Assembly (NCBI GenBank): GCA_951406725.2 | Contig: OX597823.1 | Coordinates: 7,440,001-7,504,000, forward strand | Direction: 5' to 3' | Source of the DNA: Octopus vulgaris | Taxonomy: Eukaryota | Length of the DNA stretch: 64,000 bases | Shown: piece after piece, positions 5,729-49,451 of the stretch | How the letters are laid out: every line of letters starts with the position of its first letter | How positions within the stretch are numbered: position 1 is the first letter of the stretch | Notes under the pieces: model-generated | Seen by the model: only the letters and a program-made list of their open reading frames with translations | The model's database searches: none | Told to the model about the DNA's origin: nothing | Program-made: the position numbers and the translations under genes

Positions 5729-5899
5729 TTAAATTAGGCAGCTGTTTAGTAATGTACCACCAAAAATAAAAACTATAATTGTCATTAAATATGATAGAAG
5801 GTGTAGAAGGTCTACAATGCTAGAAATAAGAGCTAAACTGTCACAGAGCACTTTAGCCCTTATTTCTAGCATTGTAGGTGTTCTAACATCTTTAATCAT

Positions 5900-5950
<51 letters not shown>

Positions 5951-5954
<4 letters not shown>

Positions 5955-6434
5955 GCTTCGATTCCTTGCCTCTGCAGCGAGTTCAGCACTGCGTTGGTTT
6001 CGACGCTATCGAAGGCCTTCTCATAATCTATGAACGCAACGCAAAGAGGCAGCTTGTACTCATTTGCTCGCTCAAGCAGTTGCGTTTGGGCAAATATATG
6101 GTCCATTGTGCTGTAGTTCTTCCGGAAGCCTGCTTGCTCCCTCGGTTGTTGTTCGTCGAGACGACTTGACAACCTGTTCAGAATTATCTTCGTGAACAGC
6201 TTGTACACGTGAGACAGCAGGCATATGGGTCGGTAGGTCTTTAGATCTTCTCTGTCACCCTTCTTATACAGCAGGATGGTATTTGACTCTTTCCACTGCG
6301 AGGGAATTCTTCCCTCGTCTAGATAGTGCGTAAATCGCTCAGCGAGGATTTTCCAGAGCTGCTCTCTGTCTGACTTTAGCACCTCCGATGTTATACCGTC
6401 TTTCCCCGGAGCCTTTCCGTTTTTCATCGAGCCG
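5951..6434 (-). pseudogene. RTE-clade LINE reverse transcriptase, inverted 5' segment
   Basis: GKAPGKDGI...YRPICLLSHVYKLFTKII...QAGFR..YSTMDHIF...AFIDYEKAFDSV, the RT N-terminal motifs. Confidence 0.93.
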
Positions 6435-7444
6435 AGAGGCAAGGAATCGAAGCGCAATATGTGCAGCTGCTCAGAGAGGCAAATTCCGGATGCACCACAG
6501 ACATAGCTCTACTGTCATCACCCATACGAGTGCCGGTTGAGAAGGGAGTGAAGCAAGGAGATACAATCTCCCCAAAACTTTTCACTGCATGTCTCGAACA
6601 GATCATCAGAGGCATCGAATGGCAAGGTGGTGTCAACATCAATGGCGAGCTCCTCACTCACCTCCGTTTCGCTGACGACATCGTACTCATCGCTGAAAAC
6701 ATGGATCAGCTTCAGACCATGCTGACATCAAAAGTTCTGCAGTAGGTCTCAAGATGAACCGCATGAAAACAAAGTTCATGCGGTCAGACAATGTACCAAC
6801 AGGTCGAATGGTGATCGGCAGTGATGAAATAGAGGAGGTGAGAGAATACGTCTACCTGGGACAGGAAGTAAATATGTGCCGGGATATCAAAAAGGAGATC
6901 TCACGGAGAGTAAGGGCCGGATGGAAGGCGTTCAATGGCATAAGGGATGTGCTCAAGGGAAGGTTGGACAGGACCACCCGCGCCAACCTCATTAACAGTG
7001 CAGTTCTGCCTGCAATGTTATATGGTAGTGAAACATGGGCTACCACAAAGAGAGAAGAGCAAAGACTGGTAACGGCTCAAAGAGCCATGGAAAGGTCAAT
7101 GCTTGGTATCTCGTTGTGAGAGCACATAAGTAGCAAGATCATCAGAAAGAAGTCCGGCGTGAGAGATGTCATCGCAGAGTATACACGCAGCAAGTATAGA
7201 TGGGCTGGACACGTCGCCCGGCTCACCGATAATCGGTGGACGCACGCAGTTTTCGAGTGGTACCCGCGCGAGCGGAAAAGACCACGCGGAAGACCTCCAC
7301 GACGATGGAGTGAAAATTTCAGGAGGACGATTGGGATCACGTGGATGAGAAAGGCGCGATCCAGAGAGGAGTGGACAGCGTGCTGTGACCAGCAGTGTCA
7401 AATGGACGCCTGACGGACTGGTCGGTCAAAGTGATCAAAGTGAT
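6435..7444 (+). mobile_element. RTE-clade LINE 3' segment (RT C-terminal half, disrupted) with a (TCAAAGTGA)2 tail
   Basis: GVKQGDTISPKLF, LRFADDIVL, YVYLGQ, MLYGSETW and RWAGHVAR motifs; frameshift near 6727, premature stop at 7117-7119 and true stop at 7413. Confidence 0.93.
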
Positions 7445-11971: not shown

Positions 11972-12279
11972 TGTATATCTATATGCACAGAGAGAGAAAG
12001 AGAAGATTTTTGAAGCGGTCTTAGGTCAACAGATTTGGGGTCTGACGATACGCCGTAAGGCCAAACTCTTTATGGGCTGGAAACCCAGGGTAACCCCATA
12101 GACCGGCCTCCTCTATTATAATATTAACTGCTCTACATCTTAGAGTGTGCTTCTTATCCGGATATATGTTTCTCTACAAACGATGTGTGTGTGTGTGTGT
12201 GTGTTGGCGTAAATTCAATATGTATATATGCGCAAACGAATGCGTATGCATACATAAAAATAACAACAATCAAAACAAA

Positions 12280-21596: not shown

Positions 21597-21775
21597 CCTA
21601 CGTGTGAATGTGTGTGCGTGCGTGCGTGCATGAGTGCGTGTGTGCATGTGTATGTATACACGCACAGCACACAGACCCTCCTAAGAAATCGTTGTCCCTG
21701 AACAAACACGTTTCCTTTTGTTGTTATCTATTGATACCTTCGTCAGTCTATCTTTCTATCAAGCTATTTTCTTAG

Positions 21776-38862: not shown

Positions 38863-38926
38863 CAACAGGTACATTATTTTCATTATTTACATTTGACGGA
38901 TATTTGTCCTCATCTTGATTGTTGAT

Positions 38927-38972
38927 AACACAACGTTTCGGCTGATATACCCTCTAGCCTTCATCAGGTGTT
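38927..38972 (-). ncRNA. Minimal type I hammerhead ribozyme motif
   Basis: AACAC-CUGAUGA-A-GGCU[AGAGGGUAUAUC]AGCC-GAAA-CG-UU-GUGUU; stem I AACAC/GUGUU is perfect and AACGUU at stem III is palindromic. Confidence 0.7.
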
Positions 38973-39521: not shown

Positions 39522-39567
39522 GACACCTGAAGAAGGCTGGAGGGTATATCAACCGAAACGTTGAGTT
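39522..39567 (+). ncRNA. Degenerate copy of the same hammerhead motif
   Basis: GACAC-CUGAAGA-AGGCUGG...CAACC-GAAA-CGUU-GAGUU; one mismatch each in stems I and II. Confidence 0.5.
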
Positions 39568-39759
39568 AACAACAAACAAGATGGGGACAAATTTCCGTCA
39601 AACATGACAATAGAAACGCACACACACACACACACACAGATACACACATCGTATACAAATATATGCACACAATTATATTCCTATATGTACATACATGCTC
39701 ATTATATATATATAAATGTGTGTATGTATATACAAATACATGTATGTATGTATCTCTCT

Positions 39760-47484: not shown

Positions 47485-48150
47485 GGGTCTTTACCTTTTG
47501 ACCGACAGATTTAAAAAATAACTTTTTGGAACTAAACACTTTCAAACTTCCTATGCTTGTAGAATGTGTCACATAAAACATCTTTTACGCTTGGCATTGT
47601 TGAGAAAATTCTGTATTTTGGAAGCTATTTCTTGTTAAAGTTGTCATATTTCGGTAATTTCAACCAATCAATAACGGGTATTCAGCTGAATAAAATTACT
47701 GCCGTTGTTTGTCAACAACAACTATCGGCGGTGTATATTTCGTTTGTCACTGTTATTTATGACATCGTTCGTGCATTTGCACTGGTTTAGCTTTAAGGTT
47801 TTAGGGTTAGGGTTAGGGTTTTAGGGTTAGGATTAGAGTTTTAGGATTAGGGCTAGGGTTTTAGGGTTAGGGTTAGGGTTTTAGAGTTACAGTTAAGGTT
47901 AGGGTTTTAGGGTTAGAGTTACGGAAAAACATGAAAAATGAAGCACGAACGATTCTGGTGGTGCCATGAAGTAAACATGCTTCAGATAAACTCGTTTATT
48001 CATACAAACGTAACTGAGATGAAAGATGTCATAAATAACGAAATATTCACCGCCGGAAGTTGTTGTTGACAAACAACAGCAGTAATTTTACACAGCTGAA
48101 TACACGTCATTGATTGGTTGAAATGACCAAAATACGACAACTTTAACAAT
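47485..48150. mobile_element. MITE related to 2493-3350 with internal (TTAGGG)n, right end lost
   Basis: Left end resembles the GGATCTTTTCGGTTTGAACGGCAG TIR and internal sequence is shared; inverted arms of about 140 bp (about 47630-47770 and 48020-48150) surround TTAGGG/TTTTAGGG repeats at about 47795-47920. Confidence 0.7.
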
Positions 48151-48286
48151 CTTATAAGAAACACCGTTGTAATCGTGTGCTGATTTTCAAAACAATAAAG
48201 GTGGCTTATTAGCAATCAGCACATGGTTTCAAAAGTGTTTCTTATAAGAATGACAAAGGAAGTTGAATTTAACCCTAGGTGTTAAG

Positions 48287-48343
48287 AGCTGCTGATGAGA
48301 ATTAAGGTGGTCTGCACCCAAAATTCGAAATTGTGATACAGCT
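48287..48343 (+). ncRNA. Type I hammerhead ribozyme with a fully canonical core
   Basis: AGCUG-CUGAUGA-GAAUU[AA GGUG gucug CACC CAA]AAUUC-GAAA-UUGUGA-UA^CAGCU; stems I and II pair perfectly; predicted cleavage after A48338. Confidence 0.8.
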
Positions 48344-48461
48344 GTGTACACTGGGGACTTACCTTCCTTTGTCAGTCATTAAGTACAGGGCTTTGGTGGC
48401 TTTAGAGTTAATGTAACTCTTATTTTAGCATAAACACTCTCCGCCACTTTATATATATATA

Positions 48462-49173
48462 TACGTTGAAGGTAATGTTATTTCTTTTGTGGAAACAACT
48501 TTGGTGGCTATACCAGAATAAGGAGCTATTTCTTGCACTAGAGTTAACCACTTAACGGTAACTCTCTTATATTTACGTATAAATTTGTATTGTCTCCCTG
48601 GTTTTTATGTGCTAGGCCACTTGGTGTTAAACTGATGGTATTATTAAATTAATATCTAATTTTTCACCCTCATTTATGAATTTATAAATTTAATATACTG
48701 CAGTAAATATTATATGCAGTATTCGTTTCCACTAAGTCTTACCATGCTTTTGGCGGGGAAGCTAAATCACAACTATGTATGCAATCGATTGGACCGCATG
48801 GGTATTTATCACCCGTGAGAGTCTAATAAATTGTATCGAAGTCAAATGCTGCTGATGACTTATAGATAAATATGTGAGTATAATTGCATATTATATTGAT
48901 AAAGAAACAATTGTTCAGCATTAATCTATCTTTTCGTTGTATTTCACTTTCCTTACGTTGAAGGTAATGTTATTTCTTTTGTGGATACAGCTTCGGTGGC
49001 TATACCAGAATAAGGAGCTATTTCTAGCACTAGAGTTAACCACTTAACGGTAACCCTCTTATATTTACGTATAAATTTGTATTTTCTCCCTGGTTTTTAT
49101 GTGCTAGGCCACTTGGTGTTAAACTGATGGTATTATTAAATTAATATCTAATTTTTCACCCTCATTTATGAAT
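48462..49173 (+). mobile_element. Retrozyme/Penelope-like element: a 492-nt unit plus a 220-nt terminal direct repeat
   Basis: 48462-48681 is repeated at 48954-49173; one hammerhead inside; (TA)n on both flanks; no ORF. Confidence 0.75.
48845..48922 (+). ncRNA. Type I hammerhead ribozyme motif
   Basis: AAUGCUG-CUGAUGA-[45-nt stem II]-GAAA-CAAUUG-UU^CAGCAUU; perfect 7-bp stem I and palindromic ACAAUUGU stem III; the first pair of stem II is a C-A mismatch. Confidence 0.72.
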
Positions 49174-49451
49174 GTATATATATATGTATATATAAATAAA
49201 AATAAATGCACCTTTTTAAAGCCTAGCCAGGCTCATGGGCCCAGTTTCCCGGTTTCAATGGCGTATGTGTTCCCTAGCTGAACGGGACGCCAGTCCTTCG
49301 CAGTGTTACTCACTTTTGCCAGCTGAGTGGACTGGAGCAACGTGAAATGAAGTGTTTTGCTCAAGAACACAACGCGTCGCCCAGTCCAGGAACTGAAACC
49401 ACAATCTTACGATCATGATGCTGACACCCTAACCACTAAGCCACGTGCCTC

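What the first reader, a model, noticed from the sequence alone, without database searches (positions are those of the whole stretch)
48150..48450. Second hammerhead family: canonical core inside a highly base-paired element of about 300 nt
Seen: 48287-48343 has every conserved core residue (CUGAUGA, G10.1-C11.1, GAAA, UH = UA) with perfect stems I and II. It is enclosed by a further 12-bp helix (TGACAAAGGAAG 48251-48262 with CTTCCTTTGTCA 48363-48374) and preceded by an inverted repeat (CTTATAAGAAACAC...GTGTTTCTTATAAG). Stem III ATTGTGAT is what CpG decay of the palindrome ATCGCGAT would give (inference). It shares the downstream motif TTGGTGGCT...TAGAGTTA..GTAACTCT with the otherwise dissimilar neighbouring 492-nt family, which suggests a common cis signal for a helper RT.
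Basis: partly seen in the sequence, partly recalled or inferred. Interest (0 to 1): 0.8.

Follow-up and report, generated by a model that had tools for sequence, protein, structure and literature searches.

The report
Penelope-stamped hammerhead retrozyme, decayed copy
This is a worn, partial copy of a 334-base repeat that carries a hammerhead ribozyme motif and is scattered through an animal genome; its copies bear the insertion marks of Penelope-like retrotransposons, which likely copied it from a predicted self-cutting RNA, so it is a new family of a known kind of parasitic element.

Summary
The hammerhead at 48287-48343 is real: full core, stems I and II. It belongs to an ORF-less 334-nt repeat with likely several hundred dispersed copies, about 12% decayed. 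Two subfamilies differ by two non-CpG compensatory pairs in stem II. Stem III is ATCGCGAT in 15 of 54 copies; most others are CpG-decay variants. The window's version cannot self-pair (+1.2 vs -10.1 kcal/mol), so this 0.7-unit copy is predicted dead.

The upstream inverted repeat is a 5' inversion found at 1 of 42 sites. The 12-bp helix is perfect only here. The motif shared with the 492-nt family is not significant.

The insertions carry the Penelope-like-element (PLE) signature: inverted arms at 44 of 68 sites, microsatellite flanks at 60 of 91 ends (control 13%), and two fixed 3' ends about 50 nt apart. 25 of 26 classable inverted insertions have one end of each kind, the PLE 'tail'. No parent pLTR was found. 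Cleavage, circles and expression are unshown.

The parts
48147..48216 (-). 5' inverted arm: a fragment of the same element (about unit positions 160-250 after the cut site, with a 22-nt deletion).
   Evidence: seen at 1 of 42 sites
48214..48450 (+). Direct arm, about 0.7 of a 334-nt unit (positions ~211-334, then 1 to ~122, with a ~15-nt deletion near the end)
48251..48262 (+). 5' strand of the enclosing helix, pairing with 48363-48374 (11 of 12 positions pair in the family)
48273..48282 (+). 5' strand of the stem I extension, pairing with 48348-48356 across an internal loop (loop 1)
   Evidence: helix 2: 85.8% of cells paired
48287..48343 (+). Type I hammerhead: stem I, intact core, extended stem II, decayed palindromic stem III 48330-48337, predicted cut after A48338
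48363..48374 (+). 3' strand of the enclosing helix
48393..48419 (+). GTGGCT followed by the GAGTTA/TAACTC hairpin; the hairpin is a family feature, but its likeness to the 492-nt family is not significant
48450..48463 (.). (TA)n tract at the 3' end, the likely insertion target; the 492-nt family starts here
48462..49184 (+). Neighbouring, younger, unrelated 492-nt hammerhead repeat (own hammerhead 48847-48920); context, not part of the element

Best explanation
This is a decayed, less-than-unit-length copy of a 334-nt ORF-less repeat with a type I hammerhead motif, whose copies were likely inserted by the RT-endonuclease of a Penelope-like element from an RNA predicted to self-cleave as a dimer and likely to circularise. 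SHOWN: the hammerhead motif, the repeat family, tandem and permuted units, inverted arms, microsatellite flanks, two fixed 3' ends. INFERRED: (1) read-through transcripts of tandem copies bring two hammerheads together, whose 8-nt palindromes form stem III between them; (2) double cleavage frees a 334-nt monomer; (3) a host ligase closes it (from the literature on other animals; about 0.6); (4) a PLE protein nicks both strands of (TA)n-rich DNA and starts reverse transcription at two internal RNA sites about 140 and 190 nt after the cut, one per strand, giving an inverted pair of arms with a 50-nt tail on one side; (5) the RT runs past the cut site, giving 1-2 units. The family looks extinct. 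The window copy has one hammerhead and a broken palindrome and is predicted inactive.
For: Family: 495, 907 and 467 first-look candidates; an 18-nt core motif is exact at 15 places, 47 with up to one mismatch, reversed control 0. Unit 334 nt in natural tandems. Selection on RNA structure: between subfamilies A (39 copies) and B (15), stem II pairs change A-U to G-C (37/2/2/10) and G-C to A-U (28/1/6/15), neither at a CpG, and H17 changes A to C; none of the 9 diagnostic columns in the 124-nt domain breaks a pair of the named structure or touches a fixed core base. Majority circle 57-60% paired, z -5.7/-5.0, stems I and II formed. PLE marks: two orientations at 44 of 68 sites; 90 of 112 outer 3' ends fall at 120-156 or 170-215; of 44 sites with two outward ends, 26 have both ends in a class and 25 of these have one of each, none long-long; microsatellite within about 30 nt at 60 of 91 ends against 13% of random positions. 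Papers describe the inverted arm and tail as PLE features (PMC8557442) and the tail as the span between two RT start sites, unique to PLEs (PMC11167929). Intact candidate helpers exist: many open 899-aa and 781-aa frames.
Against: No cleavage, circle or helper was shown. No pLTR of the PLE loci examined matches the 334-nt unit (68 loci, 20; profile test against one pLTR). Each compensatory change is one event on one subfamily split; the whole-structure shuffle control is mixed (cells with double change 0/500, pairs 316/500, pair types 393/500). RNAalifold on the 54 decayed copies found only 3 pairs, none of the hammerhead. Over the whole unit, 4 of 12 paired diagnostic columns break a pair of the subfamily A fold. 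Single natural monomers fold only at z -0.5 to -2.3. The end classes were drawn, and the sites are best hits, not a random sample. The tail here (~50 nt) is longer than the 30-40 bp in print. No long arrays were seen (at most 666 nt on one strand). In one PLE, hammerhead cleavage was not needed for insertion in vitro.
Confidence: 0.75

Rival explanations
1. Same PLE-driven element, but the template was an uncut linear multimer; no circle is formed and the hammerhead is a carried-over pLTR trait.
For: Insertions reach at most about 2 units, which a linear dimer can supply. For the anole PLE, unprocessed RNA was the main substrate and hammerhead mutants inserted normally (PMC11167929).
Against: Compensatory changes keep stem II and a permitted cut triplet across subfamilies. 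The two ends of the cut monomer pair into a long rod that closes the circle. Circles were shown for such repeats in coral, mussel and axolotl (PMC7229834).
Confidence: 0.3
2. The copies are only 5'-truncated pLTR remnants of an autonomous PLE that was not sampled or is extinct.
For: All the insertion marks are those of PLEs. The 899-aa PLE has a hammerhead of the same build, about 220 nt before its 3' end. Only 40 candidates are scored per search.
Against: 36 of 68 sites hold more than 350 nt on one strand and run upstream into the unit's own 3' part. In 97 loci of the family (67, 30, with repeats) six PLE proteins hit 5 distinct neighbourhoods, none seen to join the unit (L048 read; the others judged by coordinates).
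Confidence: 0.12
3. A DNA-level repeat (MITE, Helitron passenger or satellite) in which the hammerhead-like motif is incidental.
For: A loose hammerhead pattern occurs 3.3 times per shuffled window. One broken copy was amplified secondarily as a passenger with shared flanks. No Rfam hit.
Against: Complete core with three stems, compensatory pairs, no fixed termini, permuted 5' ends, and the tail asymmetry.
Confidence: 0.03
4. This particular copy was co-opted as a working host ribozyme.
For: Core intact (18 of 54 copies have a full core); stems I and II and the enclosing helix are fully paired.
Against: Stem III self-duplex +1.2 kcal/mol; single hammerhead; ordinary divergence, 84-88% to another copy; the paired U-A changes match CpG decay.
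Confidence: 0.03

Closest known systems
Metazoan non-LTR retrozymes (Cervera and de la Pena 2020, PMC7229834; main text parts 1-4 of 6 read, supplement unreadable)
   Same: Type I hammerhead in a 150-450-nt tandem unit, GC under 45%, no ORF, self-paired predicted circle, palindromic weak stem III needing a dimer as in axolotl; 334 nt is close to the amphibian 330-350 and mussel 350-390 nt units.
   Different: Dispersed 0.7-2-unit insertions with inverted arms and a tail rather than long arrays; extended stem II; old and decayed; expression and circles not shown.
Non-LTR retrozymes as non-autonomous PLE derivatives (bioRxiv 10.64898/2026.07.22.740005; parts 1-3 of 5 read, supplements not seen)
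   Same: Same conclusion on the helper; mostly monomers and dimers spread over chromosomes.
   Different: That study argues from co-occurrence and pLTR homology, mainly in vertebrates. Here the argument is insertion anatomy, and no pLTR homologue was found. The window copy fails their 'active' rule of two consecutive hammerheads.
Penelope-like elements and their pLTR hammerheads (PMC4209133 parts 1-2 of 4; PMC8557442 passages; PMC11167929 parts 1-2 of 4)
   Same: Partial tandems, inverted 5' arm, tail on one end, microsatellite targets, type I hammerhead with palindromic stem III.
   Different: No RT or GIY-YIG frame; tail about 50 nt; the hammerhead has a long canonical-type stem I rather than the minimal form.

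Membership tests
Type I hammerhead ribozyme | Core C3UGA6-N7-G8A9, G12AA14, A15.1-U16.1, H17 | tested here: met
   All present in the window copy; each fixed base in 45-54 of 54 copies, C11.1 in 41
Type I hammerhead ribozyme | Stems I and II, open end at stem I | tested here: met
   83% and 93% of cells paired; two compensatory pairs between subfamilies
Type I hammerhead ribozyme | Stem III able to form, alone or as a dimer | tested here: inconclusive
   Family palindrome self-duplex -10.1 kcal/mol (met, predicted); window variant +1.2 (not met)
Type I hammerhead ribozyme | Loop 1-loop 2 tertiary contact | not tested
   Both loops exist in the named structure; contact not modelled
Type I hammerhead ribozyme | Self-cleavage | not testable with these tools
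   Needs an in vitro assay
Rfam hammerhead families | Match to a covariance model at gathering score | tested here: not met
   No hit; the long stem II is a likely cause (inference)
Non-LTR retrozyme | Type I hammerhead in a 150-450-nt tandem unit | tested here: met
   334-nt unit; 36 of 68 sites exceed one unit. The window copy itself is 0.7 unit
Non-LTR retrozyme | GC below 45-50% and no protein coding | tested here: met
   GC 0.38-0.39; no PLE frame joined to the unit
Non-LTR retrozyme | Highly self-paired predicted circle | tested here: met
   z -5.7/-5.0 for column-majority units; -0.5 to -2.3 for 7 natural monomers
Non-LTR retrozyme | Expressed as linear and circular monomer RNA | not testable with these tools
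   Only contigs of runs of uncertain kind were available; see Tried and rejected
Non-LTR retrozyme | No PBS or PPT; target duplications longer than 4 bp when present | not tested
   Microsatellite flanks hide target duplications
Autonomous Penelope-like element | RT plus GIY-YIG frame between pLTRs | tested here: not met
   Tandem units adjoin directly
PLE-mobilised insertion | Inverted 5' arm | tested here: met
   44 of 68 sites
PLE-mobilised insertion | Tail on one end only (two RT start sites) | tested here: met
   25 of 26 classable sites among 44; about 50 nt
PLE-mobilised insertion | Microsatellite or AT-rich target | tested here: met
   60 of 91 ends vs 13% control
PLE-mobilised insertion | Homology to a PLE pLTR | tested here: inconclusive
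   None in the PLE loci examined; the survey covered only some PLE families

The most novel reading that the evidence does not exclude
The 334-nt unit is not a cut-down pLTR but an independent viroid-like hammerhead RNA circle that captured Penelope machinery by structure alone, offering two internal RT start sites. With at least three other ORF-less families in this genome, some with their own two 3' ends, it gives direct genomic proof that PLE proteins insert retrozymes, and a ready map of the RNA element that they recognise.
Probability: 0.25. Interest if true: 0.7.

Novelty: new member of a known kind. Interest (0 to 1): 0.42.

Why it matters
Hammerhead repeats of this kind are known from many animals, so the family itself is an expected addition. 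What it adds bears on an open question: which enzyme moves animal retrozymes. The papers read propose PLEs from shared hammerheads, co-occurrence and pLTR homology. Here the copies carry the inverted arm and the one-sided tail that biochemistry ties to PLE reverse transcription from two internal sites. I did not find that signature reported for retrozymes in the searches, though supplements were not seen. The mapped start sites and the intact PLE frames in the same genome make the helper question testable in vitro.

Tried and rejected
Rfam: no hammerhead hit. RNAalifold on decayed copies: uninformative, 3 pairs. Shared cis motif with the 492-nt family: five natural 3' regions and the whole unit scored within the shuffle range; profiles built from 52, 32, 23, 25 and 13 natural copies linked the 492-nt family to two other small families (0 of 300 shuffles) but not to the 334-nt family or the 899-aa PLE pLTR. 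Parent or helper pLTR: none matched. The 899-aa frame gave no Pfam hit and no useful PDB hit; it is called a PLE from its RT-like motif by eye, its tandem layout and its hammerhead. Expression: no RNA holder listed. Contigs of 4 runs, three of them guessed RNA, gave 3-619 pieces, mostly under 95% alike and none spanning the stretch; this cannot show expression, strand or circles. Same template for both arms of one insertion: rare non-CpG variants are shared at 0.87 and 1.29 per 100 nt within sites against 0.33 between sites, but subfamily structure and two near-identical pairs inflate this, so it is not used. A seeming third subfamily was one broken copy re-amplified with its flanks; these 8 loci were dropped before the count. 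Earlier scan findings: three look-ups, nothing. The supplement of PMC7229834 could not be read and may list similar invertebrate families.

Full report
OBSERVATION. The window lies in a 2.8-Gb animal genome (G000:C10). It looks octopus-like from its repeats; that is my recall and comes from no call. Stems I and II have pair probabilities of 0.77-1.0 and the hammerhead conformer costs 1.3 kcal/mol over the minimum. Rfam finds no hammerhead. A loose pattern alone is weak, with 3.3 matches per shuffled window, so the case rests on homologues.

THE FAMILY. Three DNA searches gave 495, 907 and 467 first-look candidates, 40 scored each. An 18-nt core motif occurs exactly at 15 places, and at 47 with up to one mismatch; the reversed control gave 0. 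Several hundred copies is my estimate. Natural tandems give a unit of 334 nt from cut site to cut site. Segments differ by 12% on average from the column-commonest letter, 26% at CpG columns and 11% elsewhere. The best whole-unit hit to an intact unit at another site is 85%, so the family looks old and inactive.

STRUCTURE. Among 54 copies that span the hammerhead and its enclosing helix, stem III is ATCGCGAT in 15, and most of the rest are CpG-decay variants; 18 have a full core and 6 have both. The named 43-pair structure is 85.6% paired, against 28-43% when partners are slid. The shuffle control is mixed: cells with double change 0 of 500, pairs 316 of 500, pair types 393 of 500. The informative signal is a split into subfamilies A (39) and B (15). 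Two stem II pairs change on both sides (A-U to G-C, table 37/2/2/10; G-C to A-U, 28/1/6/15), neither at a CpG, and H17 changes from A to C. None of the nine diagnostic columns in this domain breaks a named pair or a fixed core base. These are single events on one split, not independent repeats. Column-majority units folded as circles give z -5.7 and -5.0 (40 shuffles), with stems I and II formed; over the whole unit 4 of 12 paired diagnostic columns break a pair of the A fold. Seven natural monomers give only -0.5 to -2.3. RNAalifold recovered nothing useful.

CORRECTIONS. The upstream inverted repeat is an inverted piece of the element (48147-48216, minus strand) joined to the direct arm (48214-48450) over a 3-nt overlap. 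Only the window has it, 1 of 42 sites, and it accounts for most of the folding score (z -5.9 with it, -2.3 without). The enclosing helix has one unpaired position in 53 of 54 copies. The window's stem III forms no stable self-duplex (+1.2 against -10.1 kcal/mol). With one hammerhead in 0.7 of a unit, this copy is predicted inactive.

THE SHARED MOTIF. TTGGTGGCT arises in both window copies from different family norms, TTAGTGGCT and TCGGTGGCT. The GAGTTA/TAACTC hairpin is real in both families. But local alignments of natural copies fall within the shuffle range (23 of 300 at best), and so do profiles (128 and 108 of 300). The same profile test does link the 492-nt family to two other small families (0 of 300), so it has power. 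A shared sequence signal is therefore not supported. A structural or very short signal is not excluded; a CACCC-like motif before the longer 3' end of four families was seen by eye and not tested.

INSERTION ANATOMY. Of 68 distinct sites (54; 14 after dropping repeated sites and 8 passenger loci), 44 hold both orientations and 36 hold more than 350 nt on one strand. Of 112 outward 3' ends, 44 fall 120-156 nt and 46 fall 170-215 nt after the cut site. Among the 44 sites with two outward ends, 26 have both ends in these classes; 25 have one of each, one is short-short and none is long-long (p 4e-7 against 0.5). The other 18 have an end outside both classes, the window among them. The class limits were set, and the sites are best hits. 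A microsatellite follows 60 of 91 ends, against 13% of random positions in the same loci. PMC8557442 (passages) describes partial tandems, an inverted 5' copy, a 30-40-bp tail on one end and microsatellite bias as PLE features. PMC11167929 (parts 1-2 of 4) shows that a PLE protein cuts and extends both strands of AT-rich DNA and starts at two internal RNA sites, whose interval is the tail, a mark it calls unique to PLEs.

HELPER. The genome holds intact PLE-like families: 899-aa frames in 3.62-kb tandems with a hammerhead of the same build in the pLTR, and 781-aa frames with a GIY-YIG domain. No pLTR among 68 and 20 PLE loci matched the 334-nt unit. No PLE frame was seen to join the unit in 97 family loci. 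The helper class is thus inferred and the helper family unknown.

MECHANISM. Shown: motif, family, permuted tandem units, inverted arms, two end classes, microsatellite flanks. Inferred: dimeric cleavage through the palindrome (PMC4209133, parts 1-2 of 4); release and ligation of a 334-nt monomer (by analogy with PMC7229834, parts 1-4 of 6); PLE-driven insertion from two start sites. Overall confidence is 0.75, with the circle step near 0.6. An uncut linear multimer explains the same insertions and is the main rival.

COMPARISON AND NOVELTY. It works like, and meets the testable features of, a metazoan non-LTR retrozyme; expression as a circle and cleavage could not be tested. It is not an autonomous PLE. 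A 2026 preprint (10.64898/2026.07.22.740005, parts 1-3 of 5) already proposes retrozymes as non-autonomous PLE derivatives, from co-occurrence and pLTR homology. A squid genome paper lists 235 hammerhead 1 matches without analysis (PMC6962438, passages). The searches showed no description of this family or of the tail signature in retrozymes; supplements were not seen and repeat databases were not available. Verdict: new member of a known kind, interest 0.42, lifted above routine by the insertion evidence for a PLE helper.

Noticed in passing
window 48462-49184: Younger 492-nt hammerhead repeat (1701 first-look candidates, best hits 84-98%); stem III ACAATTGT in 27 of the 29 copies read by the tally (34 aligned), with a UU cut site; two preferred 3' ends 107 nt apart (unit positions 129 and 236).
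   Followed up: partly
L173:1-1953, L217:1460-2700, L184:1380-1756: Two more ORF-less small families (about 520-594-nt tandem unit with a hammerhead; and an L184-type element) whose 3' regions are homologous to the 492-nt family; 2429 and 2643 first-look candidates.
   Followed up: partly
3' ends of the 334-, 492-, ~525-nt and L184-type families: By eye, the longer 3' end of all four families lies about 10-20 nt after a CACCC or TACCC motif. This may be what remains of a shared start signal (PMC11167929 reports initiation in an AC-rich stem-loop). No statistic was run.
   Followed up: no
L116, L118 (G000:C1:119513500-119528000 and others): Young PLE-like family with many intact 899-aa frames in 3.62-kb tandems; its pLTR has a type I hammerhead with an 8-nt palindromic stem III and ends on (TA)n.
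   Followed up: partly
L161-L164, L173: PLE with a 781-aa RT/GIY-YIG frame behind a second upstream frame; by eye its pLTR has a U3-A8 hammerhead variant.
   Followed up: partly
L165:3043 and 3290, L168:3534, L169:1923 and 2418, L184:1219, L216:171: Further hammerhead families, several with 8-nt palindromic stem III, some in inverted pairs or a 495-nt tandem.
   Followed up: no
L229, L232, L235, L238, L241, L243, L246, L250: One decayed subfamily B copy with G10.1 changed to A was re-amplified with shared flanks, apparently as a passenger of another element or a duplication (6 of the 8 aligned).
   Followed up: partly
window 47632-48149: Element with 113-nt terminal inverted repeats around a (TTAGGG)-like array; it abuts the inverted arm and may have truncated it.
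   Followed up: no
window 38924-38967 (-), 39527-39568 (+), 21700-21746 (-), 12042-12092 (+): Matches to the hammerhead pattern that look like minimal PLE-type hammerheads; the first two form an inverted pair.
   Followed up: no
window 5729-7119: Broken RT frames of a LINE (RTE-like by recall).
   Followed up: no
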